Part shown: piece by piece, positions 15,736 through 64,000 of the stretch | How the letters are laid out: the number at the start of each line of letters is the position of its first letter | How positions within the stretch are numbered: position 1 is the stretch's first letter | From: Limosilactobacillus gorillae | GTDB lineage: Bacteria > Pseudomonadota > Alphaproteobacteria > CAAGCB01 > CAG-977 | Length of the DNA stretch: 64,000 nucleotides | NCBI GenBank assembly: GCA_963604715.1 | Contig: CAVCSV010000008.1 | Location: 2,529 to 66,528, forward strand | Reading direction: 5' to 3' | The notes under the pieces: generated by a model | What the model was told of the DNA's origin: nothing | The model's database searches: none | What the model saw: the letters and a program-made list of their open reading frames with translations, nothing else | Position numbers and translations under genes: made by a program

Positions 15736-15757
15736 AGCAAAAGCGGACGCTCTTTGT

Positions 15758-15786
15758 TTGACCGACGGGTTTTTAAGCGTTATACT
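15758..15786 (+). promoter_or_regulatory. Putative sigma70 promoter for the GGDEF-EAL gene
   Basis: TTGACC-N17-TATACT lies about 30 nt upstream of the ATG at 15817, and an SD (aaggggga) is present. Confidence 0.35.
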
Positions 15787-15816
15787 GATTGCGTTCAGTT
15801 TTATCAAGGGGGACGC

Positions 15817-17859: not shown

Positions 17860-17862
17860 ACT

Positions 17863-19671
17863 TTGTTCAAGTATGCATTTTTGCTGTTGCTGGCGGCGTG
17901 TTCCGCGCCGATTTATTCGGAAACAGCGCCGTCATGGGTCAATTCTTTGCGCGGCGGCAACAGCACGTTGAAAATGACCAGCGGCGACAAGGTGCTGTTC
18001 CGTTCCAATTTCAAAAGCGCGAAAATCACGGACAGGGAAGACGCTTGCGATGCCGCTTTGAAAAAGAACGAAGAGTTCATTCGCAAAACCTACCCCCGTT
18101 CGGCTGTGATACCGATGACGGTGGAATTGCGCTATTTCGATACGGTTGTCAAAGACTGCTCGACAACCGTCAGCGTGCCGCGTTCGTTTAAAGACGGTGA
18201 CGAAACCGCCAAAAAAACGGTCGGCGCGCAAGGCGGCAATACGGGGATTTTGAATTTGACGACGGCGCCGACGGATTCCGCCAATGTTTTGATTGACGAA
18301 ATGCCGTTTTCCCAAGCCAATTCGAATATCAAAATCGCGTTGAACGCGGGAACGCACACTTTGCGCATTGACCACCCGAATTATGAAGCGTTCGAACAAA
18401 AAATCAAAATCACGCCGCAAAGCGAATTGCCCGTTTCCGTCAAGCTGATTCCTTCCAAAATCAAAATCGCCGTCAACGTTTTAAACGACATTCAGCCCGA
18501 TGTCTGGCTGAACGATGTGAAGCAAGGCAAAACGCCCGTTTCGCTGACGGCGGAAATCAATCAGGACAACACGATTACCTTGCGGCATCCCGAATTTTTG
18601 GAATATACGATTGCGCTGAAAGCCGCCGATATGCGCCGCGGCGACGATGTGAACCTGACCAACGTCGTAATGACCGAAAAGCCCGCGTATGTCGCTTTTA
18701 CAACAGATCCTTCGGGCGCCGAAATTTTTGTCGACGGCAAAAACATCGGAAAAACACCGATTAAAAAGTATGTTGTTTCACGTGGAACACACCGATTTGA
18801 AACATATAAAAACGGCTGGCTGGCAAGCGGCGGAGAAATCGTTGCCGCAGGCGGAAAAACAACGGCGAAGCACATTCGGCTGACCAAAGACGCGGATTCC
18901 CGCTTCGTCGTTTTGGAAACCAAAAGCGAAACGAAACCCGCCGTTGTTGTGCAAAAACAAACCGCCGACATTGTGGCGCGCGACAAATATCATACGTATT
19001 CTTTTGAAGCGTTGCCCGCGACTTTGCCCGTCATTCCGCAGGCGGCGACGCGTGAGGACATTTTGGCGGCTTTGGCGAAATGGGATTATCCCGAAAACTT
19101 TTTGAAAGGCAGCGTGTCCTACAATCCGAACGGCACGTTTTTCGTTCGTTTGTTTTTCGACGCGAATGCGTACAAAACGTTGTTTTACGATAAAATCCAC
19201 GCCGTTTTGAAACGGATTCCGAAAGATTCCGCCGTCTGCAAAATCGAACACAAGCGCGAATGGACGGGAAAATACGATGCGAACAAATACAAGGTTTACA
19301 CGGAAACCGTTACCGACAACTGCAATCACGGAATAGCGGTCGCCAAAACGCCCGACGGCAAAAAGCTGAAAAAGTACGGCATTTCGTATTTGAAGACTTT
19401 GAAAATCAAATCAAAAGCCGTCAGCCGCACGGCGGTTTTAAAGGTCGTCTATGCGGACGGCGGCGTCAAAACGGTTAAATTCCCGATTGTTTTGGGAAAA
19501 GTCAAAACGGACGGCGGATTGACCTTTTCTCCGTCAATCAAAGTCGGCGTTTGCCCGAATTGCAAGGTTGAAACATTGGTACAGAAAAACAATTCCATGG
19601 TTGTCGGAACCGTTCTTGATGCCCGAAACGTTCGGTCCGTGACGCTTTCAATCGAAAGGGATATGCGATGA
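17863..19671 (+). CDS. Lipoprotein with three PEGA domains (602 aa)
   Basis: The signal peptide carries the lipobox LLAAC. PEGA-like motifs include LIDEMPF…GTHTLRIDHPNYE, VWLNDVKQGKTPV and EIFVDGKNIGKTPIKKY…GTHRFETYKNGW. Confidence 0.7.
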   Translation: MFKYAFLLLLAACSAPIYSETAPSWVNSLRGGNSTLKMTSGDKVLFRSNFKSAKITDREDACDAALKKNEEFIRKTYPRSAVIPMTVELRYFDTVVKDCSTTVSVPRSFKDGDETAKKTVGAQGGNTGILNLTTAPTDSANVLIDEMPFSQANSNIKIALNAGTHTLRIDHPNYEAFEQKIKITPQSELPVSVKLIPSKIKIAVNVLNDIQPDVWLNDVKQGKTPVSLTAEINQDNTITLRHPEFLEYTIALKAADMRRGDDVNLTNVVMTEKPAYVAFTTDPSGAEIFVDGKNIGKTPIKKYVVSRGTHRFETYKNGWLASGGEIVAAGGKTTAKHIRLTKDADSRFVVLETKSETKPAVVVQKQTADIVARDKYHTYSFEALPATLPVIPQAATREDILAALAKWDYPENFLKGSVSYNPNGTFFVRLFFDANAYKTLFYDKIHAVLKRIPKDSAVCKIEHKREWTGKYDANKYKVYTETVTDNCNHGIAVAKTPDGKKLKKYGISYLKTLKIKSKAVSRTAVLKVVYADGGVKTVKFPIVLGKVKTDGGLTFSPSIKVGVCPNCKVETLVQKNNSMVVGTVLDARNVRSVTLSIERDMR

Positions 19672-20327
19672 AAAAGCTTTTTGCGGTCTTGTCTTTGTTT
19701 TTGCTGAATGCCTGCGCCGCGCCCGAACATCATACGTTATTCATCGATTCTAACGTTTCCGCCGATGTGTATACGGGCGATGTCAAAATCGGGACGACGC
19801 CGTTTTGGGGTGAAATGTCGGGCAACGACGTTATGCATCTGACACTGCGCAAGCAAGGCTACAAAACAGCGGAAATCAAAGCGGGATACGGTGTGAAAGA
19901 CGGCTATTCCCGCGGCGGCGTTTTTGCGTCGACCAATACGCTTTCATCCGACTGCGATACCAAAACGATGGCTTACGGCGACAAAGAACCGCAAGGCGTT
20001 TGTCAAGTCACGACGTTTTATGCCGTCGCTTCCATGATTTACGGGCTGGGGCTGTCGATTTCGGCGACGGATACTTTTTACCCCAATCCCGTTTTGTTTG
20101 AATTCGACGACAACGAATTTTATGTTGAAATGGTTCCCGAAAACAAAGAAAAATTCACGCAAAACGATTTGGAAAACCTGCGGTTCAAGGCTTTTGTTTT
20201 AAAAAATTTCCCGTCGCTGCAGGCGCAAAAGCCCGAATATGTCGCGGCGTTGAAAAAGCTTGCCCCGACGGCGGCATCGCCCGCCGATTACCGCGCCGCG
20301 ACGGATTATCTGCGGGCGGCTGAATGA
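19668..20327 (+). CDS. Lipoprotein with an N-terminal PEGA-like domain (219 aa)
   Basis: Lipobox LLNAC and the motif DVYTGDVKIGTTPF. It overlaps the upstream gene by ATGA. Confidence 0.65.
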   Translation: MKKLFAVLSLFLLNACAAPEHHTLFIDSNVSADVYTGDVKIGTTPFWGEMSGNDVMHLTLRKQGYKTAEIKAGYGVKDGYSRGGVFASTNTLSSDCDTKTMAYGDKEPQGVCQVTTFYAVASMIYGLGLSISATDTFYPNPVLFEFDDNEFYVEMVPENKEKFTQNDLENLRFKAFVLKNFPSLQAQKPEYVAALKKLAPTAASPADYRAATDYLRAAE

Positions 20328-21223
20328 CAAAGCCGCTGCTTTTGCTGCTGTTTTTGGCGGGGTGTCAGCTTCCTGCGGAAAACGGCACGCCGCTGAAAGT
20401 GGACGCGTATTCGGCGGAAATCCCCGCGGACAAAGCGGCGGTCGTGCGTCTGCAAAACAAAATCATTCGTCAAAGCAGTTTGGAATACAGGGACTTTTAC
20501 CCCAAATTGAAAGCGGTTTTGACCGAAAAAGGCTATCGGATTGTTTCGGAAAACCAACCGCATGCCGTTGTGTTGAAACTTTATTTCGGTGTACGGCGCA
20601 CGAATTACTGGAACGGGCGGTACAGCATCGGAAAAACGTCAAAACCGTCGGCTTATTCGGACGATGTTTTTGCGCAAGCGTTGTCCGTTTACAAAAAAAC
20701 GAATTTGTATTCCAAATTTTTGCGCGTTGTTGCCGTCGATGCCGAAAACCCGAAGCGCGAGCTGTGGAAAGTCAAAGCCGTCAAAGAAGACGAAGCCGAG
20801 GATTTCCGTTCCGCGCAATATGAATTGCTGTATCTGTTCAACCGCTATGCGGAACGGGATTCTTTGCTTCAAATTCGGGGAAATTTGTCGGGCAATGAGG
20901 TTTATCAGCGTTTTATTCGGAAAGTGTCGCCCGCGCAAACGGATATGACCGCTTATTTGCCGATGGAGCTGAAAAACGATTATCAAAAATGGCTGCAAAG
21001 AAAAGTCAACGCCTGCGCAAAGGTTTTTGTTCCGTGCGGTTTGAAAGCGGGAACATGGGCGAGGTTCGAACTGACCGCGTTCGGAACGGTGGAATTTTTT
21101 GAAACAAACGCCGATTCCGAACGGGCGAAGTCCTGCTTGGCGGAAATGTTGGAAAGTTTGGTTTTGGCACCCGTCGGCATTCCCAAGAACGAAACCTATA
21201 CCGTTGTCATTCCGCCGCCATAA
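20324..21223 (+). CDS. Lipoprotein of unknown function (299 aa)
   Basis: Lipobox FLAGC and an ATGA overlap with the upstream gene. No family was recognised. Confidence 0.6.
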   Translation: MTKPLLLLLFLAGCQLPAENGTPLKVDAYSAEIPADKAAVVRLQNKIIRQSSLEYRDFYPKLKAVLTEKGYRIVSENQPHAVVLKLYFGVRRTNYWNGRYSIGKTSKPSAYSDDVFAQALSVYKKTNLYSKFLRVVAVDAENPKRELWKVKAVKEDEAEDFRSAQYELLYLFNRYAERDSLLQIRGNLSGNEVYQRFIRKVSPAQTDMTAYLPMELKNDYQKWLQRKVNACAKVFVPCGLKAGTWARFELTAFGTVEFFETNADSERAKSCLAEMLESLVLAPVGIPKNETYTVVIPPP

Positions 21224-55587: not shown

Positions 55588-57036
55588 TCATATCTCCAGA
55601 ACGCCGCGTGAAAACAAAAACACGGCAATCAGAGCAGCGGCAATCAACAGCCCCGCCGCCCACGGTTCGCGCCCTTTGAACACGGGTTCGTTCGGGGCGT
55701 TTTCACGTCTTGCCCAAACGAAAACGGGTATGCCGCAGGCAAGGAACAACACCGCCATTAACAGATATTGCAAGCCCGCCGCGTAAATCAGCCATACGGC
55801 ATAAGCCGACCCGAACATTGACGACAACAGCGCTTCGGAACGCGGAGAAACGGCGGTTTTCGGGTATTCACCGTCTTCGCACATTTTCCACAAAAATCCC
55901 ATGCTGACCAGATAGGCGGGCAGAACCATCACGCCCGTAATCGACAGCATGGTGCTCCACGCGTCACGGGAAAAATACACCATGAAAATCGCCGCCTGCA
56001 TCAGCGCGCTGCTGACCCACAGGGATACGGACGGCGAACCGTTTTTGTTTTCACGGGCAAAGACGCGCGGAAAAGCGCCGTTTTTCGCGGCGGCGAACGG
56101 AATTTCAGCCGCAATCATCGTCCATGCCAGCCAGCTGGCAAGAACCGCAATCAGCAGCCCGCCGTTCATCAGCCGCGCGCCCCATTTGCCGACGGCGGCT
56201 TCCAAAACGCCCGCGGTGGACGGATTGGGCAGGGCGGCAAGTTCGGTTTGGCTCATAAAGCCGTACGGCAGAACGGACAGCAGGACGTAAATTGTCAAAC
56301 AGCCCAAAAATCCGATGAAAGTCGCTTTGCCGACGTCGTTTTTGTTTTGCGCGCGATCGGACAGAACGACCGCCCCCTCAATCCCGATGAAAGCCCAAAG
56401 CGTTACCAGCATGGTGCTTTTGATTTGTTCGGGAACGGAACCCAGTCCTTTGCCGTGCGAAGCCAGTTTGCCCCAGAAATCAGCGTCGAACGTGTCCGCT
56501 TTGAACATGAAAGCCGTTATCAGAATGAAAATCAGCAAAGGCACGATATTGCACACCGTGCCGATGATGTTGACAAAGCTTGCCCTTCGCACGCCGCGCA
56601 GAACAACGGCGTTGAACCCCCAAATCAGCAATGAACCGCCGATAATGGAATAAAGCCCGTTGCCGCCCGCGAAATACGGCGGGAAAAAGTAATTCAGCGC
56701 GTCCATGGTGATGACGGCATAGCCGACGTTTCCGAAAATCTGACACAGCCAGTACCCCCACCCGATTGTGAAGCCCGCGAACGACCCGAAGCCCGCGCGG
56801 GCGTACATATATACCCCCGCGGTCAAATCGGATCGCGCGTCGGACAGGATTCTGAACGAATTGGCAAGGAAATACATGCCGACGCCCGTAATCAGCCACG
56901 CCAGCAGCACCGCGCCGACGCTCGCCCCCGCCGCCATGTTTTGGGGCAGGCTGTAAATCCCGCCCCCGACCATGGAGCTGACCACGACGCACGACAGCGC
57001 CGCCAATCCCAGCTTGTTGCTTTGTTGTTCAGCCAT
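55588..57036 (-). CDS. APC-family basic amino acid antiporter (ArcD/YdgI-like); a candidate arginine:agmatine antiporter
   Basis: Strong resemblance to ArcD/YdgI (GIYSLPQNMAAGAS, WGYWLC, IKSTMLVTLW, RAQNKNDVGKATF) with 12–13 TM helices. It lies immediately downstream of a pyruvoyl decarboxylase gene. Confidence 0.8.
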   Translation of the reverse strand: MAEQQSNKLGLAALSCVVVSSMVGGGIYSLPQNMAAGASVGAVLLAWLITGVGMYFLANSFRILSDARSDLTAGVYMYARAGFGSFAGFTIGWGYWLCQIFGNVGYAVITMDALNYFFPPYFAGGNGLYSIIGGSLLIWGFNAVVLRGVRRASFVNIIGTVCNIVPLLIFILITAFMFKADTFDADFWGKLASHGKGLGSVPEQIKSTMLVTLWAFIGIEGAVVLSDRAQNKNDVGKATFIGFLGCLTIYVLLSVLPYGFMSQTELAALPNPSTAGVLEAAVGKWGARLMNGGLLIAVLASWLAWTMIAAEIPFAAAKNGAFPRVFARENKNGSPSVSLWVSSALMQAAIFMVYFSRDAWSTMLSITGVMVLPAYLVSMGFLWKMCEDGEYPKTAVSPRSEALLSSMFGSAYAVWLIYAAGLQYLLMAVLFLACGIPVFVWARRENAPNEPVFKGREPWAAGLLIAAALIAVFLFSRGVLEI

Positions 57037-57047
57037 TGTCCGTCCCT

Positions 57048-57629
57048 TTACAGCTTGACGGGATCGGCTGTTTCAAAGTTCAAAAAGCCCAAGCACGTCA
57101 AGCAATAGCCGAATTGCTGCGTGATGTTGATATAGTTGTGAAACAGCTGGAATTCGCTGTGTTTTTCGACGCCGCGGATTTCCAGTTCGTGATTCAAAGA
57201 CTTGTTCAGCCACATTTCGGCGTGCCCTTTGGCAATATCGTCGTCAATGTAGGTCGGGAAGTATTCGACATATTCCGCCGCCCAGCCGCCGATAAGCTTG
57301 CCAGTTTTGTCCTTGCCCCAGCAAACGCCGACGCCCGTCGCGATTGCGCGGTGGTCGTTGCGGTTCGCGCCGTTGCCCGCCATGATGACTTCCAACACCG
57401 CGCCGTGTTTGAAGAATTTGGACACTTTGTCGACGGGAACGATGTTGCCTTTCAATTCGGGCGGCAGAACGGACGTGTACGGAATGACGTTGAAGTCTTG
57501 AATTTTCGCCTGCGCCAAAGCCGAGTCGTAACAGAACGTTTCAAACGGCTGCGGCGGAATACCGTCGTCCGATTGCCCCGCGCCGCCCGTATGAAAAGCC
57601 AATGTCGGATAACGAGTGCCTACTAACAT
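57048..57629 (-). CDS. Pyruvoyl-dependent arginine decarboxylase family protein (PvlArgDC/AaxB-like)
   Basis: The 193 aa product has a self-processing-site region NVIPYTS|[12 protein letters not shown] that aligns with the archaeal and chlamydial PvlArgDC NLIRISS|IMPPEAEIVP. Confidence 0.7.
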
Positions 57630-57775
57630 GTTTAATCTCCTTAAAAAAGTGAATTGCGTCTTTAACGGTACGGAGTTTCAAAAGGGAAAAACAGCTGGAC
57701 TTGTTTTTATAACCGTATTGCCGACTGTTTGAATTTGCGCGCTTTGCCTAAGCTGAAATAAAAAAGGAGCGGACG

Positions 57776-58843
57776 ATGCGGATAAAAACGGCGGCGGTTT
57801 TAATACTTTCGGCGGCGAATGCGCAGGCGGCGGATTACGCGGATTTCAAACGGGATTTGTCAGAAAATTACGGCTTCGATTACAGCTTGGACGTGTCCGT
57901 TTTGGGGCAAAAGGGAACGCCGAACAACGAAAAAAGCGCGACGCAGACGATTTACGCCCCGTCGGCAAGCTGGCAATCGTACGACGGCGGAACGATTGAT
58001 TTTTCCTATAATCTGGTGCGGTATTGGGGCGGAAATGCGGCGCGGGTGCAGAATGATTTGGGACTGGCGAATCCGATAAACGATTATGCAAACCGCCAAA
58101 GTTCGTTCGACCAGCTGACTTTTACGCACAGTTTCGGCAAAGCGGCGGTTACCGTCGGACAGTTTCCTTTGTACAACTTTGACGGCACGGCGTACGATTC
58201 CAATCAGCAAACGAATTTTATCAGCGACGCTTTGGCGCAAAACGGCGCGGAAACATATCCGACCGCGGGGTTGGGCGCATATGTGCAGTTCAATCCGAAC
58301 AATGAATTTTCGGTTGCGGCGGGCTTTCAAAACGCCGCAAACGTCGACGCCAGAGCTTTGTCGACAAAAGGCTGGGGACAACACCGTTTCACAAGCTTCG
58401 GGCAAATCGCTTACACGCCGCGGTCGGGGACTTATTCGGTATTGGTGTACAACCAGCCGTCGGTCAAGGCGCAACCTCAAAACTCGACAGGTGTTTCGGT
58501 GAATTTGATGCGGAATTTGTCCGACAACACCGCCGTTTTTATGCGAATCGGCGGGGTTTCGGGGGCTTCCGTTCCGTTAAAGCGCTCGTATGTGCTGGGC
58601 GGGGTCGTGAACTTTGCGAAAAATAATCAAATCGGGCTGGCGGCGGCGATCAACAAAGTGGCGAAAAAGTATTACAATACGCCAGTTCGCGCCTACGAAT
58701 CCGTGATAGAAGGTTATTGGAACATCGGCGTCGGCAGGTATTTGACGATTACGCCCGATATGCAGGTTTATATCAATCCCGCTTTGGACAGGTCGGCGAA
58801 AACGGCGACGGTGTTTTCCCTACGCGGCACAATCCAGCTGTAA
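57776..58843 (+). CDS. Outer-membrane beta-barrel porin-like protein
   Basis: Signal peptide (…SAANAQA|AD), alternating amphipathic beta-strand patterning, and an aromatic-rich C-terminal strand. It is divergent from the decarboxylase-antiporter pair. Confidence 0.55.
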   Translation: MRIKTAAVLILSAANAQAADYADFKRDLSENYGFDYSLDVSVLGQKGTPNNEKSATQTIYAPSASWQSYDGGTIDFSYNLVRYWGGNAARVQNDLGLANPINDYANRQSSFDQLTFTHSFGKAAVTVGQFPLYNFDGTAYDSNQQTNFISDALAQNGAETYPTAGLGAYVQFNPNNEFSVAAGFQNAANVDARALSTKGWGQHRFTSFGQIAYTPRSGTYSVLVYNQPSVKAQPQNSTGVSVNLMRNLSDNTAVFMRIGGVSGASVPLKRSYVLGGVVNFAKNNQIGLAAAINKVAKKYYNTPVRAYESVIEGYWNIGVGRYLTITPDMQVYINPALDRSAKTATVFSLRGTIQL

Positions 58844-59341
58844 AGCGGCGGCGGCTTTGCGTTCCGCCCGCTTCATGGCGTAAATCGTGTACAGGTAAAC
58901 GGAAATGTTGGTGATGTCCTGCACCGTTCCCGCATACGACCCTTTGGCGGTGTCGTGAATCAGCCAGCAGAAGCAACAGCAAAGCAAAATGACGCGCAGT
59001 TTGATACCTTTGGTGTACGCGGTGCCGATTGTTGCGACCAAAACGGCGGTCAAAGGCATCAGGCTGTAAAAATCCTGATAAGTGAAATACGCCAGAACGC
59101 ACGCGGCAATCGAAAACGGAACGGCGATAATCAGTCCGTTCAGCGTGCGGTTCAAGTACATGCGAATACCAATCAGCAACGCGGACGCCGCCGCCATTTG
59201 ATTGTTCAGCAGCCAATGGTGCGCGGTGAAAAACAAAAATGCGACGCTGAATCCCAAAAACAGGCGGTCGTCTTTTTTCTGCAAACCCGCCCACAGTCCG
59301 ATAAGGTAGCCTACGAACCCGATGCCTTGGATGTAATCCAT
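58820..59341 (-). CDS. YgjV-like inner membrane protein
   Basis: A 173 aa product with five TM helices, the last gene of the ubiA-hisH-hisF-membrane operon. Confidence 0.5.
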   Translation of the reverse strand: MDYIQGIGFVGYLIGLWAGLQKKDDRLFLGFSVAFLFFTAHHWLLNNQMAAASALLIGIRMYLNRTLNGLIIAVPFSIAACVLAYFTYQDFYSLMPLTAVLVATIGTAYTKGIKLRVILLCCCFCWLIHDTAKGSYAGTVQDITNISVYLYTIYAMKRAERKAAAALQLDCAA

Positions 59342-60432
59342 TGTTTTGCTCCTTGGAAAATTCGCAAAAGGTTATAAAACAAAGCAAGGGCGATTAAAAC
59401 AAAAATCGGCAGGGGAGCGAACGAAACGATGTCTTTTTCGGAAAAAACGAAATCCGTGTACGGGTTGAGCGTGAAAAACGCGGGGATGAACAGCCAAAGC
59501 GGCGGATTTTTACCCGATTCGCTTTTTTCAAGCGTTGCCGCCGACACAACCCACGCCGCCAAAATCAAGCTTTCCCACCGTCCCCAGTTCGGCAGGGAAA
59601 ACAGCAATAAAGGCGCGTAAACGGCGGGATGTTTGAACAGCTTTTTCGGTAAACACCAAACAATCGGCACGGCGGTCAGGATTATCGCAAGCAAACTGAG
59701 CGGCACAATCCGCGTTTTGAAAAACGACAGCCAGTCCGCATAGGAATCGGCAAAATTCGCGTAATATTTCATCGACAAAGCAAACGGATTCGCTTCGCCC
59801 GTGATATATTTGACCGCCAGTCCCAAATCCGCATCCCAAGCCGTTTCCACCGCTTGTTCGACATCGCGGGGAAAGGCGGTCAAGGCGGCATAAACCACGC
59901 CGAACACTAAAAAATACGGAATCGTTTTTTTGTGCCGCGTCATGACCAAAGGGGCGAAAAACAGCGCTTCTTCGTGAATCAAAGTCGCCAAAGTCATCCA
60001 CACGGCGGCGGCGAGCGGCTTTTGCGCGCGCATGGCGGCGATGAAGCCCAACAAAACAAAAGCGTCCTTGCGCAATCCCGCCGTCGGGTAAACAACGCCG
60101 TACAGCAATACGGACGATGACAGCAAAATCAACAGACGCGTCCGTGGATTCGGCAGGTCAAGCGCCGTTTTCGCAAACAAAAAAACGGCGGCGGCATACG
60201 ACAAGCAAATCAGACCGCACAACGCTTCGGCGGCATACGGGCGGCAAAGCAGTCCGATTTCACCCAGCAGTCCGCGGCGGATAAAGCCGCCCCGCCAGTT
60301 CAGCATCAGCTCCTGCCACGGATAAGTCGTCGGAAAATCGGTAATCAGCGGCACGACGGACAGCGCGAAAAATACCGTGAAAACAGCCGTCCACGCCCAA
60401 GCGGACTTGGGATTTTCACACCAATCGAACAT
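59311..60432 (-). CDS. Polytopic membrane protein (373 aa, nine or more TM helices); a possible GT-C-like glycosyltransferase
   Basis: Multiple TM helices with a conserved-looking first periplasmic loop. Its start overlaps the hisF stop. No family was recognised with confidence. Confidence 0.5.
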   Translation of the reverse strand: MFDWCENPKSAWAWTAVFTVFFALSVVPLITDFPTTYPWQELMLNWRGGFIRRGLLGEIGLLCRPYAAEALCGLICLSYAAAVFLFAKTALDLPNPRTRLLILLSSSVLLYGVVYPTAGLRKDAFVLLGFIAAMRAQKPLAAAVWMTLATLIHEEALFFAPLVMTRHKKTIPYFLVFGVVYAALTAFPRDVEQAVETAWDADLGLAVKYITGEANPFALSMKYYANFADSYADWLSFFKTRIVPLSLLAIILTAVPIVWCLPKKLFKHPAVYAPLLLFSLPNWGRWESLILAAWVVSAATLEKSESGKNPPLWLFIPAFFTLNPYTDFVFSEKDIVSFAPLPIFVLIALALFYNLLRIFQGAKQWITSKASGS

Positions 60433-61177
60433 TGACGCCGCAGTCTTTCAGGGCTTGTTTCAAAACGGGGACGGGCAAAGTGCCGAAATGGAAAATCGAT
60501 GCCGCCAAAGCCGCGTCGGCGCATCCTTTTTCAAACACGTCGACAAAGTGCTGCAGATTCGCCCCCGCGCCGCCCGAAGCGATGACGGGGATACGGACGC
60601 TTTGCGATATTTCGGCGGTAATCGGCAAATCGAATCCCTGCTGCGTGCCGTCCGCGTCCATTGACGTTAACAGGATTTCCCCCGCCCCAAAACTTTCGAC
60701 CGTTTTCGCCCAGTCAAGCGCTTTCAGCTCTGTTTTATGCTTGCCCGCGCGGGTGACGACGAAATATTCGCCGTCGTATTTTTTGACGTCTATGGCAACC
60801 GTAATGCATTGCGACCCGAACTTGCCCGCGGCTTGTTCGATTAAAGCGGGTTTTTCGACGGCGGCGGAATTGACGGACACTTTGTCCGCGCCCGCCATCA
60901 ATAAATTGTGAATGTCGTCCAAAGTGCGGATTCCGCCCCCGACGGCAAAGGGGATAAAGACGTTTTTGGCGACTTGCTCCACAACGTCCAGCATGGTTTT
61001 GCGCCCGTCGTTCGTCGCGGTGATGTCCAGCAAAACCAGTTCGTCCGCCCCCTGTTCCGAATAGCGTTTCGCCAGTTCCACGGCATTGCCCGCATAGCGC
61101 AGGTTTTCAAAGTTGACGCCTTTGACCGTTTGCCCGTCCTTGACGTCCAAGCACGGAATAATGCGTTTCGTAATCAT
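60416..61177 (-). CDS. hisF: Imidazole glycerol phosphate synthase cyclase subunit HisF (or a paralogue)
   Basis: [11 protein letters not shown]…SGGAG (beta-alpha)8 barrel. The start is taken at the ATG overlapping the hisH stop (ATGA). Confidence 0.85.
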
Positions 61178-61758
61178 GCGAACACCCACCTTTTCAGCGT
61201 ATCGCGCCCGACTTGCCCGCTTTTTTCGGGATGAAACTGTGTCGCCGTAACGTTTTTGTGCTGAATCGCCGCCGTAAAAGGAACATGATAGTCGGCGACG
61301 GCGGATATAATCGCCGAATCGGCGGGGACAACGTGGTACGAGTTCACAAAGTAATAAAAATCGTTGCTTAAAAAAGTGTTTGCCGCCGCGGTTTGAATTT
61401 TGTTCCAGCCGATTTGGGGGACTTTTCCCGTTTGAAAACGGACGGCTTTTCCTTTGAATATCTTCAATCCTTGGACGTTCGGCGCTTCCTCGGACGAATC
61501 GAACAGGACTTGCAGTCCGACGCAGATTCCGAAAAACGGCACGCCTTTTTCAATCACGGCTTTCAAAGGGGCGGTCAGCCCTTTTTGATTCAGCGACTCC
61601 ATGACTTGCCCGAAATGACCCTGTCCGGGGAACAGCAGTTTTTCTGCCTGTTCGATTTTGTCGGCTTTGTCTGTCAAAACAAACGGAACGCCGAAGCTTT
61701 CCAACAAATTGACGACGCTTTTCAAATTGCCGCCGCCGTAATCCAATACCGTCAGCAT
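61174..61758 (-). CDS. hisH: Imidazole glycerol phosphate synthase glutaminase subunit HisH (or a paralogue)
   Basis: Class-I glutamine amidotransferase (GICVGLQ, catalytic HPEKS). It is directly adjacent to hisF with no hisA between. Confidence 0.85.
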   Translation of the reverse strand: MLTVLDYGGGNLKSVVNLLESFGVPFVLTDKADKIEQAEKLLFPGQGHFGQVMESLNQKGLTAPLKAVIEKGVPFFGICVGLQVLFDSSEEAPNVQGLKIFKGKAVRFQTGKVPQIGWNKIQTAAANTFLSNDFYYFVNSYHVVPADSAIISAVADYHVPFTAAIQHKNVTATQFHPEKSGQVGRDTLKRWVFA

Positions 61759-61759
61759 T

Positions 61760-62605
61760 TTATCCCCAATACAGCAATCCGAGCATGACCAGCCCGTACA
61801 AAGCAACCAAACCGCACAGCGTTTTGTCGCTGAGCAGCACGTCGACGGGATCGGCGTATTTTTGCGTTTCGACGTTCAAGCCGTACTTCATGCAAATCAC
61901 AATGACCAAAGGCACCGTCCAAATCGTTCCGACGGAGTGCAAAGCGGACGGCGACATCGCCCACAGCGCATAAAAAGCAATCGTCAGCGTTTGGCAAACG
62001 GTCATATACTTGTCCAGAAAATCGGGCGTGTAGAACTTTAAAACGCCTTTGCTTTCGCCCGCCAGCAAATCGTTGCGCCGCTTGCCCAGCGCCAGATAAC
62101 ACGCCATTGTCATTACGGTCATATACAGCCATGGCGACACTTCTTCGTCAATCAGCGCCGCGCCGTAAAACAGACGGACGATAAAGCCCGACACCAGCAA
62201 AACGATGTCCAGAACGGGAATTTTCTTTGCCCCGCGGCTGTAGGCGAGGTTGACCAGAAAATACGCAACCAGCAAGGCTTCCGCCGTGCCGTTTTGCAAA
62301 GCCGCCGCGCCGCCGAACGCCGCAAGCATCAGCAAAGCAAACAAAGCTTTTGCCGTTTTTTCCGAAACGGTTTTTGCGGCAAGAGGGCGGAATTTTTTGA
62401 CTTCGTGCAGTCGGTCGGATTCCATGTCCGCCAAATCGTTCATCACATAAACCGCCGAAGCAAGGAAGCAAAAACACAGTGTTCCCGCCGCCGTTGCAAT
62501 CAAATCTGCGGGATTTGTCAGCCGACCGCCGAAAATCAGCGGCAAAAAAATCAGTCCGTTTTTTATCCAATGGTGCGGGCGCAGCAGTTTCAAGACGGGA
62601 AGCAT
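61760..62605 (-). CDS. UbiA-family decaprenyl-phosphate 5-phosphoribosyltransferase-like protein (DPPR synthase/Rv3806c/NoeC-like)
   Basis: LRPHHWIKNGLIFLPLIFG…ASAVYVMNDLADMESDRLHEVKKFRPLAAK closely parallels the DPPR synthase signature (…VNDxxDxExDRxHxxKxxRPxAAG). Seven to eight TM helices. The start is at MLPVLKLL. Confidence 0.7.
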   Translation of the reverse strand: MLPVLKLLRPHHWIKNGLIFLPLIFGGRLTNPADLIATAAGTLCFCFLASAVYVMNDLADMESDRLHEVKKFRPLAAKTVSEKTAKALFALLMLAAFGGAAALQNGTAEALLVAYFLVNLAYSRGAKKIPVLDIVLLVSGFIVRLFYGAALIDEEVSPWLYMTVMTMACYLALGKRRNDLLAGESKGVLKFYTPDFLDKYMTVCQTLTIAFYALWAMSPSALHSVGTIWTVPLVIVICMKYGLNVETQKYADPVDVLLSDKTLCGLVALYGLVMLGLLYWG

Positions 62606-62815
62606 TGATTTCTCCTTTTTCCAAAGAATAGAAATTTTCGGCGCACAAGGCAATTTTTTTATTTTGGCGGAAAAGGACGCATTCCTTGGGAGCATTATCC
62701 TGTCAAATCAAACGGTCATTTGATTTAGAGAAAATTCAAGATTGTATTTGCAAACAAAACCGCGGGGTGCTATGCAAAAAGTCTAATGACCGTTTGTTCT
62801 ATAGGGGAAAATCCA

Positions 62816-64000
62816 TGAAACTGTCAAAAACCGCTTTGCGTGAACTGTCCGCGAAATACCGTGCCGTATTGATGAAATGCGCGCTGATGAATATGATGAT
62901 TTTTGCAGGCGCGCTGATGCCGCACACGGCGGAAGCAAGGGAATTGACAGCAGACGATAAAAGAGAAAACAATTCTATCGTCTTTACGACCGAAGACAGC
63001 ATTTTTGACGGAAAGGGCAAATACACCGTTTCCAGCACGAACGATACCACAATGACCGTCATAGGTGACGGCACGTTGAAAAACATCACGTTGGAAGCAA
63101 AAAAAATTGATGCGTCCCAATCTTTGACATTGAACATTATCGACTCTACCCTGAACTCCGACTCGATTGAGGCAAAGAACATCAACGTAAACGGCACATT
63201 GACCGTTACAGATACGGATACTTTTTCTGCCGACTGCATTACGGGTGCGGACGGTGCAGAGGTTCATTTTCGGTCAAAAAGCACCATGAGCCTGAAAAGC
63301 AGTAATGGAAAACTGAAAATCTCGAATGTTTTACTGGATTTTGAGAAGACGGATATCAATTTTCAAGATGCCGATTTTACGAACACTCGAATGAAAACGA
63401 GTCTGGAGCTTCCCGACTCCATCAGGTTTGGTTATGCCTCGTTTAACGGAAACAACACCATAACAGCTAACAGTATTTTGGCGCCTTCAATTACCGTTTC
63501 AGTCAACGGCAGCCTGACGTTGAAAAATCTGGACGGCACGGGCAACGGTTTGCTGACGGGCGGATTAAATCTGTACGGGCATTTCACGGGCGACATGAAG
63601 GACGGAATATTAAACCTTAACGCTTGTTCCGACTGGTCGTTCAATGGAAAATTGAATGTTGACAAGGTTGATGCTTATTTTATCGATGGCGACGCCCTCG
63701 ATATGTCAAATTTAAAATTGGCGGCGGGTTCGTCCATAAACGTTCTGTCAATCAGCAACAAAATCAGCAACGAATCCAGCATCACGACGTCCCGCATGAT
63801 TGTCAATTCCGACCTTTCTGTTAATGAATTACAGATTTATAACTCCAATACTTCTGCGAAAACCGTAGCACAGATCACCGGAACGGGAACGTTGAAAACG
63901 GAAACCATTTATCAAGAGGACTACGCGCATTCAAACGATGTAACCGTTCATTTCGACGGGATCAACATCTCCGCCCTGAAGAACGATCTGACGTTTGACG
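62816..64000 (+). CDS. Large surface protein with an autotransporter-like extended signal peptide and a repetitive beta-helical passenger region. It is partial: the 3' end runs off the window.
   Basis: The frame is open from the ATG at 62816 to the window end (over 394 codons) and is absent from the ORF track. The N-terminus is MKLSKTALRELSAKYRAVLMKCALMNMMIFAGAL. T/N/S/G-rich repeats are present (TLKN…, NGTLTVTDTDT…). Its AT content is visibly higher than its surroundings. Confidence 0.6.

What the first reader, a model, noticed from the sequence alone, without database searches (positions are those of the whole stretch)
58820..62605. Five-gene operon joining a DPPR-synthase-like UbiA phosphoribosyltransferase to a standalone HisH/HisF pair and two membrane proteins
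Five genes on the minus strand are packed with overlaps or 1-nt gaps. The first is a UbiA-family protein with the decaprenyl-phosphate 5-phosphoribosyltransferase (Rv3806c/NoeC) signature. Next come hisH and hisF with no hisA between them and no hisB, hisD or hisE nearby. Then comes a 373 aa membrane protein with nine or more TM helices, possibly a GT-C glycosyltransferase, and finally a YgjV-like membrane protein. DPPR synthases make polyprenyl-P-ribose-5-P for arabinan or arabinosylated glycans, but the DprE1/DprE2 epimerase genes are absent here. HisH/HisF paralogues are otherwise known to donate ammonia for amidino-sugar formation in LPS and flagellin glycan clusters, but the WbpG-type amidotransferase partner is also absent. 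I do not recognise this combination. It could define a new lipid-linked phosphoribosyl or ribofuranosyl (possibly aminated) donor pathway for a surface glycan. The alternative is that these are the housekeeping IGP synthase genes in an unusual context.
Basis: inference. Interest (0 to 1): 0.7.

Follow-up and report, generated by a model that had tools for sequence, protein, structure and literature searches.

The report
Histidine-enzyme genes sharing operon with glycolipid genes
The five tightly packed genes are real, but they are most likely an ordinary histidine-pathway enzyme pair (HisH/HisF) co-transcribed with optional cell-surface sugar-lipid genes and a small membrane protein, in an uncultured gut alphaproteobacterium, not one new pathway.

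Summary
Five minus-strand genes (62605 to 58820) are packed with a 1-nt gap and overlaps of 4, 17 and 31 nt.

- **UbiA protein:** a polyprenyl-phosphate 5-phosphoribosyltransferase-like enzyme. It keeps the PRPP- and Mg-binding residues of M. tuberculosis Rv3806c.
- **HisH/HisF:** by model scores, catalytic residues and divergence they cannot be told apart from canonical imidazole glycerol phosphate synthase. They do not look like WbuY/WbuZ-type glycan-amidation paralogues.
- **373-aa protein:** it has a GT-C glycosyltransferase fold and belongs to a family with no Pfam model.

About 40 related contigs show that the invariant unit is hisH-hisF-ygjV. The UbiA gene is present or absent exactly between a conserved leader and hisH. 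The GT-C gene occurs only in the window's own clade and one more distant relative, and it is a deletion pseudogene in the UBA6411-type relatives.

The operon is therefore best read as a mosaic. It combines canonical IGP synthase, an always-linked YgjV protein of unknown role, and an optional lipid-linked pentofuranose module.

I could not check whether the rest of the histidine pathway exists in these apparently genome-reduced bacteria, so an orphan HisHF-YgjV function remains possible. Interest is moderate.

The parts
61760..62605 (-). UbiA-superfamily gene, 281 aa. It is a putative polyprenyl-phosphate 5-phosphoribosyltransferase (PPPRS/DPPR-synthase-like) and the first gene of the operon.
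   Evidence: - PF01040 at 77.3 bits.
- The best NCBIfam models are NF008977 (182.7 bits, cut-off 234) and NF008978 (177.3 bits, cut-off 207), both decaprenyl-phosphate phosphoribosyltransferase.
- The best solved structure is Rv3806c (8j8j), E 6.9e-29.
- Residues named in PMC10994848 map as follows: K28 to K15, Y70 to Y53, N73 to N56, D77 to D60, D81 to D64, Q135 to N119, Y138 to Y122, Y157 to F141.
- The gene is present or absent among relatives at exactly this position.
61174..61758 (-). hisH, 194 aa. Glutaminase subunit of imidazole glycerol phosphate synthase.
   Evidence: - TIGR01855 at 192.6 bits, above the cut-off of 105.4.
- The best solved structure is T. thermophilus HisH (1ka9_H), E 7e-47.
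- The GICVG catalytic Cys, the FHPEKSG His/Glu and the PGQGHFG oxyanion strand are all present.
60416..61177 (-). hisF, 253 aa. Cyclase subunit of imidazole glycerol phosphate synthase.
   Evidence: - TIGR00735 at 350.5 bits, above the cut-off of 294.55. WbuZ at 285.1 bits is below its cut-off of 299.7. This is the same score pattern as canonical operon HisFs.
- Score against reconstructed HisF-LUCA is 321 bits, and about 281 bits against T. maritima and T. thermophilus HisF.
- R5, D11, K19, K99, D130, E167, the DGT motif, the SGGAG motif and the AASIFHF motif are all kept.
59311..60432 (-). Gene for a 373-aa polytopic membrane protein with a GT-C glycosyltransferase fold. The family is unnamed. 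This gene is an accessory member of the operon.
   Evidence: - No Pfam or NCBIfam hit.
- Only 6 word-indexed homologues were found. An exhaustive profile search found 246 distant relatives, and the ten of these that were scanned have no Pfam hit.
- AlphaFold model: pLDDT 85.4, pTM 0.88.
- Conserved residues are E41 in the first loop, R52-R53, R121-K122-D123, E154 and D/N282-x-G284-R285.
- In L017, L010, L011 and L100 it is a pseudogene: the first 13 codons, then a stop, then about 253 codons deleted.
58820..59341 (-). ygjV-family gene, 173 aa. Small inner-membrane protein and last gene of the operon. Its 3' end overlaps convergent aaxA by 24 nt.
   Evidence: - PF10688, E 1.4e-31.
- 23% identical to E. 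coli YgjV over the full length, E 4e-15.
- It follows hisF in every related locus recovered, including loci that lack UbiA, and it is tandemly duplicated in some.
- There are 35 invariant residues across 7 lineages.
62606..62814 (-). Upstream leader and promoter region of the operon. It is shared with a divergent plus-strand ORF.
   Evidence: - Shine-Dalgarno AAGGAG lies 7 nt before the UbiA ATG.
- No Rfam family matches this region.
- In relatives, the equivalent leader is conserved whether UbiA or hisH is the first gene (A4).
- Homology of the window's own leader to those leaders was seen by eye only and was not tested.

Best explanation
This is a mosaic operon in an uncultured, gut-associated alphaproteobacterium. 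It is transcribed as one unit from a leader upstream of the first gene.

1. **HisH/HisF.** This pair is the ordinary imidazole glycerol phosphate synthase. It converts glutamine and PRFAR to IGP, AICAR and glutamate, which is the fifth step of histidine biosynthesis. By inference, hisA and the other his genes lie elsewhere in the genome.
2. **YgjV.** This small membrane protein always travels with hisHF in this lineage. Its role is unknown. It may be a transporter, or a flippase when UbiA is present. Neither role is shown.
3. **UbiA and the GT-C protein.** These are optional passengers forming a lipid-linked pentofuranose module of the kind described by Kelly et al. 2024. The UbiA enzyme would transfer ribose-5-phosphate from PRPP to a polyprenyl phosphate. 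The GT-C protein would then use the lipid-linked sugar, after dephosphorylation and flipping, to decorate a periplasmic glycan.

**Shown:** the gene identities, the conserved catalytic residues, the GT-C fold and the presence/absence pattern.
**Inferred:** the enzyme activities, the lipid, the acceptor, the missing phosphatase and flippase, and the existence of the rest of the histidine pathway.
For: **HisH/HisF are canonical**
- HisF passes the TIGR00735 cut-off and fails the WbuZ cut-off, with the same score pattern as HisF from complete his operons.
- All catalytic, gate and phosphate-binding residues of HisF are intact, and so is the HisH triad.
- HisF is 59-63% identical to Paenibacillus HisF and HisH is 37-41% identical to Paenibacillus HisH. 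Canonical genes from the other-phylum loci (mainly Bacteroidota) fall in similar ranges, 55-66% and 35-52%, so there is no sign of accelerated evolution.
- Each of the six gut alphaproteobacterial species genomes recovered shows only one hisF locus among the 80 best hits.

**The module is modular**
- hisH-hisF-ygjV is invariant.
- UbiA is present in L006-9, L017, L019, L020, L100, L102, L104, L107, L108, L114 and L118. It is absent in L018, L021, L029, L105, L106, L109, L110, L112 and L113.
- The same divergent tRNA-Lys(CTT) and a homologous leader precede whichever gene comes first.
- The GT-C gene is a deletion pseudogene in UBA6411-type contigs, while UbiA there remains intact.

**UbiA is PPPRS-like**
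- Five of seven PRPP-contact residues of Rv3806c are identical and two are conservative.
- Firmicutes homologues at 47-48% identity sit in glycan clusters, with a HAD-GtrA fusion or with small membrane proteins. None has hisHF beside it.

**The 373-aa protein is GT-C**
- A distant homologue lies beside a GT2 gene, an LPG_synthase_TM gene and an SMR-like gene.
- The PPPRS + flippase + GT-C scheme is described in PMC11127046.

**Composition**
- All five genes have the window's GC content.
Against: - The other histidine genes were not found in the 64-kb window or in any 10-20 kb flank of about 40 related contigs. The whole genomes could not be searched.
- If these MAGs belong to order RF32 (not verified), that order is described as genome-reduced with very low biosynthetic capacity (PMC13155120, PMC13196213). 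That raises the chance that the pathway is incomplete.
- hisH-hisF-ygjV has stayed together through several flank rearrangements, and ygjV has been duplicated in place. This hints at a functional tie that the mosaic reading does not explain.
- No phosphatase and no recognised flippase accompany UbiA. In the 56%-identity clade no GT-C gene is nearby, so the pentofuranose module is incomplete as seen.
- UbiA scores fall below all NCBIfam equivalog cut-offs.
- Placing UbiA between the promoter and hisH, with a 1- to 10-nt gap, enforces co-expression. That may not be accidental.
Confidence: 0.55

Rival explanations
1. Orphan module. These genome-reduced gut bacteria lack the rest of the histidine pathway. 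HisH/HisF together with YgjV perform a different, still unknown task, for example acting on an imported or alternative phosphoribosyl compound, with YgjV as its transporter. UbiA would be an occasional add-on that also draws on PRPP.
For: - hisH-hisF-ygjV is the invariant unit in all 19 informative metagenome loci and all genome loci of this lineage, despite changing flanks, and ygjV is duplicated in place in some.
- No other his gene lies in any flank.
- The closest HisF relatives outside the lineage are from gut Gastranaerophilales. There hisF is a solitary gene with no his gene within 10 kb. This suggests exchange of hisF alone between gut lineages.
- RF32 is reported to have very low metabolic capacity.
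Against: - Every PRFAR-contacting and catalytic residue is kept, and divergence is no faster than in canonical HisF and HisH. The only known source of PRFAR is HisA.
- Scattered his genes are common. The Rickettsiales MAGs L093 and L095 and the Gastranaerophilales loci show this.
- E. coli YgjV sits downstream of uxaCA, so the family has no general link to histidine.
- No riboswitch or histidine-related leader was found.
Confidence: 0.22
2. One integrated new pathway. The UbiA enzyme makes polyprenyl-P-ribose-5-P. HisH/HisF then aminate or rearrange this lipid-linked sugar. The GT-C protein and YgjV deliver it to a surface glycan.
For: - The genes are tightly, translationally coupled.
- The UbiA-hisH adjacency is kept between clades whose UbiA proteins are only 55% identical.
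- No phosphatase is present, so the 5-phosphate that HisF-type barrels bind would still be on the lipid (inference).
Against: - UbiA is absent from many lineages that keep hisHF-ygjV under the same leader.
- The GT-C gene has decayed in a sister species in which UbiA is intact.
- HisF is a soluble barrel with a canonical PRFAR site. In canonical enzymes the glutaminase is switched on by PRFAR binding (established knowledge).
- UbiA homologues in Firmicutes have no hisHF beside them.
- No WbuX/PseA-type amidotransferase is present.
Confidence: 0.08
3. HisH/HisF are WbuY/WbuZ- or HisH2/HisF2-type ammonia donors for acetamidino or amidino sugar formation in an LPS or flagellin glycan.
For:
- The WbuZ model scores 285.1 bits.
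Against: - The WbuZ score is below its cut-off of 299.7 and the AglZ/HisF2 score of 231.9 is below 310. Canonical HisFs give the same sub-threshold scores.
- The TIGR00735 cut-off is passed.
- No PP-loop amidotransferase partner lies in the operon or its flanks.
Confidence: 0.03
4. The UbiA protein is an aromatic prenyltransferase for ubiquinone, menaquinone or heme O, not a phosphoribosyltransferase.
For: - It hits PF01040 in general.
- It falls below the cut-offs of the DPPR-synthase equivalogs.
Against: - Scores against ubiA (36 bits), heme O synthase (22 bits) and the other prenyltransferase models are far lower than the 183 bits against the DPPR synthase model.
- The residues that bind the 5-phosphate and ribose of PRPP in Rv3806c are conserved.
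- Named homologues are annotated as decaprenyl-phosphate phosphoribosyltransferase.
Confidence: 0.02

Closest known systems
Three-component extracytoplasmic pentofuranose glycosylation systems (Kelly, Whitfield et al., PNAS 2024, PMC11127046). Prototype: Citrobacter youngae O1/O2 ORF15 (PRP-PPPRS), ORF14 (MATE flippase) and ORF12 (GT-C, GT136). Related to mycobacterial Rv3806c, Rv3807c, Rv3789 and the Aft/Emb enzymes.
   Same: - A UbiA-type polyprenyl-phosphate phosphoribosyltransferase with conserved NDxxDxxxD and PRPP contacts.
- It is encoded together with a GT-C-fold membrane protein.
- There are no DprE1/E2 genes, so ribofuranose would be the default sugar.
   Different: - No HAD/PRP or PAP2 phosphatase is present, and no MATE or SMR/GtrA flippase.
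- The GT-C protein is small (373 aa), has no carbohydrate-binding domain and belongs to an unnamed family. Its membership of GT136 was not tested.
- The two genes are separated by hisH and hisF.
- Both genes are dispensable among close relatives.
Canonical imidazole glycerol phosphate synthase HisH/HisF (T. maritima 1GPW, T. thermophilus 1KA9; TIGR01855 and TIGR00735)
   Same: - The model cut-offs are passed.
- All catalytic and ammonia-gate residues are kept.
- It is a two-subunit enzyme with a 4-nt overlap between the genes.
- Divergence is normal.
   Different: - hisA is not between the two genes. It is there in 52 of 61 comparison loci.
- No other his gene lies within the flanks examined.
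- The pair is flanked by a UbiA gene and by membrane-protein genes.
- The nearest relatives are from gut Gastranaerophilales, not from other Alphaproteobacteria.
WbuY/WbuZ (HisH2/HisF2, AglZ) glycan-amidation pairs
   Same: A stand-alone hisH-hisF-like pair without hisA, in a cluster that contains glycan-type genes.
   Different: - Scores fall below the WbuZ and AglZ cut-offs and above the HisF cut-off.
- The cyclase residues are intact.
- No WbuX/PseA-type amidotransferase is present.
E. coli YgjV (b3090), Pfam PF10688
   Same: The same family, with 23% identity over the full length, similar size, and a multi-span inner-membrane protein.
   Different: - The E. coli gene lies downstream of uxaCA, the hexuronate catabolism genes. 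Here the gene always follows hisF.
- No function is known for either protein.

Membership tests
Imidazole glycerol phosphate synthase (HisH/HisF) | HisF matches the equivalog model above its curated cut-off and better than the paralogue models | tested here: met
   - TIGR00735 gives 350.5 bits against a cut-off of 294.55.
- WbuZ gives 285.1 bits, below its cut-off of 299.7. AglZ/HisF2 gives 231.9 bits, below 310.
- Calibration with operon HisFs shows the same pattern.
Imidazole glycerol phosphate synthase (HisH/HisF) | Cyclase catalytic Asp11 and Asp130, ammonia-gate residues R5, E46, K99 and E167, and the two phosphate-binding sites | tested here: met
   - The alignment to HisF-LUCA and T. 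thermophilus HisF shows [40 protein letters not shown] and AASIFHF conserved.
- E46, in GADELV, is also conserved.
Imidazole glycerol phosphate synthase (HisH/HisF) | HisH class-I glutaminase triad (Cys84, His178, Glu180) and oxyanion strand | tested here: met
   GICVGLQ, QFHPEKSG and PGQGHFG are present, and TIGR01855 gives 192.6 bits against a cut-off of 105.4.
Imidazole glycerol phosphate synthase (HisH/HisF) | The rest of the histidine pathway, which supplies PRFAR, is present in the same genome | not testable with these tools
   Only the window and flanks of up to 20 kb of relatives could be read, and none holds hisG, hisIE, hisA, hisB or hisD.
Polyprenyl-phosphate 5-phosphoribosyltransferase (DPPR synthase/PPPRS; Rv3806c, NoeC, C. 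youngae ORF15-C) | UbiA fold with the NDxxDxxxD motif that binds Mg-pyrophosphate | tested here: met
   N56-D57-x-x-D60-x-x-x-D64 aligns with N73, D74, D77 and D81 of Rv3806c. The roles of these residues come from PMC10994848 and PMC11127046.
Polyprenyl-phosphate 5-phosphoribosyltransferase (DPPR synthase/PPPRS; Rv3806c, NoeC, C. youngae ORF15-C) | Residues that contact the ribose and 5-phosphate of PRPP (K28, Y70, Q135, Y138, Y157 in Rv3806c) | tested here: met
   K15, Y53 and Y122 are identical. Q135 becomes N119. Y157 becomes F141, and Phe also occurs there in some mycobacteria.
Polyprenyl-phosphate 5-phosphoribosyltransferase (DPPR synthase/PPPRS; Rv3806c, NoeC, C. youngae ORF15-C) | Score above the curated cut-off of an NCBIfam equivalog model | tested here: not met
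   The scores are 182.7 against a cut-off of 234, 177.3 against 207, 166.8 against 351 and 126.2 against 474. These are the best-matching models by a wide margin, but all fall below their cut-offs.
Polyprenyl-phosphate 5-phosphoribosyltransferase (DPPR synthase/PPPRS; Rv3806c, NoeC, C. youngae ORF15-C) | PRPP-dependent transfer of ribose-5-P to a polyprenyl phosphate | not testable with these tools
   A biochemical assay is needed.
Three-component pentofuranose system (PMC11127046) | A phosphoribose phosphatase (HAD PRP domain or PAP2) fused to the synthase or encoded beside it | tested here: not met
   There is no HAD or PAP2 gene in the operon or among its immediate neighbours. The Firmicutes homologue does have a HAD-GtrA fusion gene.
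Three-component pentofuranose system (PMC11127046) | A dedicated flippase (MATE, or SMR/GtrA type) | tested here: inconclusive
   - None of these families is present.
- YgjV is the only small membrane protein in the operon, but it persists in lineages that lack UbiA.
- YgjV has no detectable similarity to any solved structure.
GT-C glycosyltransferases | Polytopic membrane module with the GT-C fold | tested here: met
   - Model quality: pLDDT 85.4, pTM 0.88.
- Foldseek found nothing significant (best E 0.55). Its highest-probability hits were ALG9, ArnT and Pmt1.
GT-C glycosyltransferases | Conserved acidic residue in the first extracytoplasmic loop | tested here: met
   E41 is Glu in 45 and Asp in 14 of 60 family members. 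It lies in the short helix just after TM1. A catalytic role is inferred, not shown.
GT-C glycosyltransferases | Membership of a named sequence family (Pfam or CAZy, for example GT136) | tested here: not met
   There is no Pfam or NCBIfam hit for this protein or for the 10 distant relatives that were scanned. It was not compared with GT136 sequences, which were not available here.
WbuY/WbuZ glycan amidation pair | WbuZ/HisF2 model above its cut-off, and a partner WbuX/PseA-type amidotransferase | tested here: not met
   WbuZ gives 285.1 bits, below its cut-off of 299.7, and no such partner gene lies in the operon or its flanks.

The most novel reading that the evidence does not exclude
In a genome-reduced order of uncultured gut Alphaproteobacteria, the rest of histidine biosynthesis has been lost. 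A fully intact HisH/HisF enzyme is nevertheless retained as a fixed three-gene unit with a YgjV membrane protein, often behind a PRPP-using UbiA enzyme. This would reveal a second physiological role for IGP synthase, or a new substrate for it, tied to a membrane transporter or a lipid-linked ribosyl phosphate.
Probability: 0.15. Interest if true: 0.8.

Novelty: new variant of a known kind. Interest (0 to 1): 0.38.

Why it matters
**If the favoured reading holds**
- It adds a stripped-down variant of the lipid-linked pentofuranose systems that decorate bacterial surface glycans. The variant has no fused phosphatase and no known flippase.
- It identifies an unnamed GT-C family of a few hundred members.
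- It shows that such genes can be slipped into, and lost from, a housekeeping operon in abundant but uncultured gut bacteria.

**The more interesting open point**
- The hisH-hisF-ygjV unit never varies. A simple whole-genome check would show whether these genome-reduced bacteria keep IGP synthase without the rest of the pathway.
- If they do, that would point to an unknown use of a textbook enzyme and give the first functional handle on the YgjV family.

Tried and rejected
- **First structure prediction.** The 373-aa protein folded with only 7 close sequences gave pLDDT 46.9, which is unusable. It was redone with 60 distant relatives.
- **Fold libraries.** Foldseek against the PDB gave no significant match. 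The afdb50 library was not available.
- **YgjV structure and repeats.** A YgjV profile against PDB sequences found nothing even at E 10. hhalign of the N-terminal half against the C-terminal half found no internal repeat. A SWEET- or PnuC-like architecture is therefore not supported and is not claimed.
- **Literature.** Searches for YgjV, PF10688, UbiA together with hisHF, and RF32 histidine or auxotrophy gave nothing specific.
- **RNA elements.** Rfam found no riboswitch or attenuator (ZTP, PRPP, glutamine or His leader) upstream of the operon in the window or in seven relatives. Only tRNAs were found.
- **More contexts for the GT-C family.** Two further look-ups were uninformative.
- **A coincidence checked.** A HisF hit and a UbiA hit listed with the same longest-contig length (5700 bp) turned out not to mark a UbiA-hisF locus: the HisF contig is a Gastranaerophilales contig that carries no UbiA gene.
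- **Readings rejected.** Recent horizontal acquisition of the five genes is not supported, because their GC and GC3 match their neighbours. The WbuY/WbuZ reading and the quinone or heme prenyltransferase reading were rejected for the reasons given under the rival explanations.

Full report
**1. What is in the sequence**

Five minus-strand ORFs fill 62605 to 58820:

| Gene | Coordinates | Length |
|---|---|---|
| UbiA | 61760-62605 | 281 aa |
| HisH | 61174-61758 | 194 aa |
| HisF | 60416-61177 | 253 aa |
| Membrane protein | 59311-60432 | 373 aa |
| YgjV | 58820-59341 | 173 aa |

- The junctions are a 1-nt gap, a 4-nt ATGA overlap, a 17-nt overlap and a 31-nt overlap.
- A strong Shine-Dalgarno (AAGGAG) precedes the first ATG.
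- Upstream, a divergent plus-strand adhesin or autotransporter-like ORF starts near 62815 and runs off the window.
- Downstream, a convergent porin gene (aaxA-like) overlaps the end of ygjV by 24 nt. It is followed by a pyruvoyl-dependent arginine decarboxylase gene and a basic amino acid antiporter gene.
- GC and GC3 of the five genes match the rest of the window.
- The other genes in the window include rho, maf-aroE-coaE-dnaQ, secB, mnmE/G, hrcA-grpE, mreBCD-pbp2-rodA, dnaX-ybaB-recR and fabG/F. Together with the named relatives, they place the window in an uncultured gut alphaproteobacterial lineage. The nearest species genome is Alphaproteobacteria bacterium UBA6411, with 91% HisF identity.
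- I suspect GTDB order RF32 or a neighbouring order, but I did not verify this.

**2. The individual genes**

*UbiA*
- It matches PF01040. By a wide margin its best NCBIfam models are the decaprenyl-phosphate phosphoribosyltransferase models, at 183 bits. Quinone and heme prenyltransferase models score only 20-40 bits. All scores are below the curated cut-offs.
- The closest solved structure is M. tuberculosis Rv3806c, E 7e-29.
- I mapped the residues the structure paper identifies as contacting Mg-PRPP (PMC10994848) onto that alignment. K28, Y70, N73, D77, D81 and Y138 are identical. Q135 is Asn and Y157 is Phe.
- PRPP-dependent phosphoribosyl transfer to a polyprenyl phosphate is therefore the likely chemistry.

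*HisF and HisH*
- HisF passes the HisF equivalog cut-off (350.5 against 294.55) and fails the WbuZ and AglZ/HisF2 cut-offs.
- HisFs taken from complete his operons of Paenibacillus and Chitinophaga give the same pattern: 378.9/276.2 and 354.6/266.8. The sub-threshold WbuZ score is therefore simply what a normal HisF gives.
- The HisF alignment keeps R5, D11, K19, E46, K99, D130, E167 and both phosphate sites. HisH keeps its Cys-His-Glu triad and oxyanion strand.
- Identity to Paenibacillus HisF and HisH falls within the ranges of canonical genes from other phyla, mainly Bacteroidota. Neither subunit has evolved faster than normal.

*The 373-aa protein*
- It has no Pfam or NCBIfam hit. It has only six close homologues among 5.8 billion proteins.
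- An exhaustive profile search found 246 distant relatives of about 390-410 aa. The ten of these that were scanned have no Pfam hit either.
- With 60 of them as the alignment, AlphaFold gave a confident model: pLDDT 85.4, pTM 0.88.
- The family conserves an acidic residue in the first loop (E41). It also conserves R52-R53, R121-K122-D123, E154 and D/N282-x-G-R285.
- One distant member sits next to a GT2 gene, an LPG_synthase_TM gene and an SMR-like gene. That is the usual company of enzymes that use polyprenyl-phosphate sugars.

*YgjV*
- It is a clear PF10688 member, 23% identical to E. coli YgjV. The E. coli gene lies downstream of uxaCA.
- No function is known for the family. I found no similarity to solved structures and no internal repeat.

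**3. Comparative genomics**

I read about 40 related contigs from context look-ups, a genome-collection scan with HisF and a metagenome scan with YgjV.

- **All five genes.** They occur in the window's own clade: L002, L003/4 and L102 carry all five, and the truncated contigs L001, L101, L103 and L104 carry the same order as far as they extend (UbiA 78-99% identical).
- **GT-C gene in a more distant relative.** L005 has hisF, the GT-C gene (53% identical) and ygjV on a short contig.
- **GT-C pseudogene.** In UBA6411-type contigs (L010, L011, L017, L100) the GT-C gene is a pseudogene. Its first 13 codons are followed by a stop, about 253 codons are deleted, and the last 107 codons remain. UbiA is intact there.
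- **UbiA without a GT-C gene.** A second clade, with UbiA 52-56% identical, has UbiA-hisH-hisF-ygjV and no GT-C gene.
- **No UbiA.** Several other clades have hisH-hisF-ygjV with no UbiA at all, sometimes with two tandem ygjV copies. The upstream neighbours are unrelated: an MBL-fold gene, a DUF308 gene and a DUF1015 gene.
- **A shared leader.** In both UbiA-plus and UbiA-minus loci the same divergent tRNA-Lys(CTT) and a homologous leader of about 130 nt precede whichever gene comes first. UbiA has therefore been inserted into, or deleted from, one conserved transcription unit.
- **Direction of the change.** A rough HisF tree puts the window clade as sister to all the others, with the second UbiA clade nested among UbiA-less clades. 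Ancestral presence followed by repeated loss is the simpler scenario, but the tree is weak.
- **ygjV always follows hisF.** Every ygjV relative recovered from metagenomes with enough flank (19 of 19) lies directly after hisF.
- **UbiA elsewhere.** UbiA homologues in Firmicutes (47-48% identical) lie in wall-glycan clusters, with a HAD-GtrA fusion or two small membrane proteins. None has hisHF nearby.

**4. Housekeeping or not**

- tblastn with a full set of Paenibacillus His proteins found hisA directly upstream of hisF in 52 of 61 loci from other phyla, usually with hisB, hisD, hisG and hisIE as well. The probes are therefore sensitive across phyla.
- They found none of these genes in the 64-kb window or in any flank of the gut alphaproteobacterial loci.
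- Each of the six species genomes of the lineage appears only once among the 80 best HisF loci, so there is no sign of a second copy. That search was seeded by short peptide patterns and is not exhaustive.
- The nearest HisF relatives outside the lineage (61-70% identical) belong to gut Gastranaerophilales. There hisF is a lone gene among unrelated housekeeping genes. This shows that his genes can be scattered. It also hints at exchange between gut lineages.
- Two recent papers describe RF32 as genome-reduced with very low metabolic capacity. If the lineage assignment is right, that keeps the orphan possibility open.
- My inference rests on the enzyme itself. An unaltered PRFAR site evolving at the normal rate implies the normal substrate, and that substrate needs HisA and the earlier enzymes.

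**5. Most likely mechanism**

- One promoter drives the operon.
- HisH/HisF carry out the normal fifth step of histidine synthesis.
- Where present, the UbiA enzyme makes polyprenyl-P-ribose-5-P from PRPP. After dephosphorylation and flipping by proteins not identified here, the GT-C protein would add the pentofuranose to a periplasmic glycan. This follows the three-component scheme of Kelly et al. 2024.
- YgjV is either an unrelated passenger, a transporter linked to hisHF, or the missing flippase. Its persistence without UbiA argues against an exclusive flippase role.
- Gene identities, conserved residues, the fold and the presence/absence pattern are shown. All activities, the lipid, the acceptor and the existence of the remaining his genes are inferred.

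**6. Verdict**

- The proposed single new pathway is not supported.
- An orphan HisHF-YgjV function is the main rival, at about 0.2.
- I classify the finding as a new variant of known kinds, of moderate interest.

Noticed in passing
window 55588-58843: An AaxABC-like acid-resistance cluster lies next to the operon. It has an OprB/AaxA-like porin (57776-58843, plus strand; NF051888 272.8 bits, below the cut-off of 600). It also has a pyruvoyl-dependent arginine decarboxylase (57048-57629, minus strand) and a basic amino acid/polyamine antiporter (55588-57036, minus strand). The system is best known from Chlamydia. Here it is conserved beside ygjV in most relatives but is missing in L018.
   Followed up: partly
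window 62815-64000 (+), runs off the end: A long ORF has a signal-like N-terminus and repetitive Thr/Asn/Ser-rich sequence, and looks like an adhesin or autotransporter. It is divergent from the operon and lies in the lowest-GC part of the window (0.467).
   Followed up: no
L017 7690-8010; also L010, L011, L100: The GT-C gene is a deletion pseudogene in UBA6411-type genomes. The sequence [13 protein letters not shown] is followed by a stop, about 253 codons are missing and the last 107 codons are retained. The neighbouring UbiA, hisH, hisF and ygjV genes stay intact.
   Followed up: yes
L105 5483-6498, L106 1710-2735, L113 5463-6501, L111: Two tandem, diverged ygjV copies follow hisF in some UbiA-less lineages. 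They are 36-38% and 49-50% identical to the window protein.
   Followed up: partly
L006 7787-7862, L021 9197-9272, L110 3769-3844, L107 1075-1150 and others: A divergent tRNA-Lys(CTT) gene and a conserved leader of about 130 nt sit just upstream of the first operon gene, whether that gene is UbiA or hisH. The leader has TTTGCAATAA and CTTTCCTTTT...TGCTAT blocks. The window itself has no tRNA there.
   Followed up: partly
L022-L035, L086, L097: HisF of these gut Alphaproteobacteria is closest (61-70% identical) to HisF of gut Gastranaerophilales (Melainabacteria). In those genomes hisF is a solitary gene, for example next to pheS, with no hisH or other his gene within 10 kb. This may reflect gene exchange between gut lineages.
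   Followed up: partly
L080 6525-7909: A mouse-gut Lachnospiraceae MAG also has adjacent hisH-hisF with no hisA and no other his gene nearby. The pair sits among sulfatase, radical-SAM and HAD genes, and its HisF is fully canonical (TIGR00735 390 bits).
   Followed up: partly
window 13426-21223 (+): A run of plus-strand genes encodes a PAS-GGDEF protein, a PAS-GGDEF-EAL protein, a 602-aa PEGA-domain lipoprotein and two small lipoprotein-like ORFs with no family hit. It may be a surface module controlled by c-di-GMP.
   Followed up: no
L098 6093-9606: A distant member of the new GT-C family (407 aa, E 3e-20 to the profile) is encoded directly after a GT2 gene and an LPG_synthase_TM gene, next to a 115-aa EamA/SMR-like protein. 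This suggests the family as a whole uses polyprenyl-phosphate sugar donors.
   Followed up: partly
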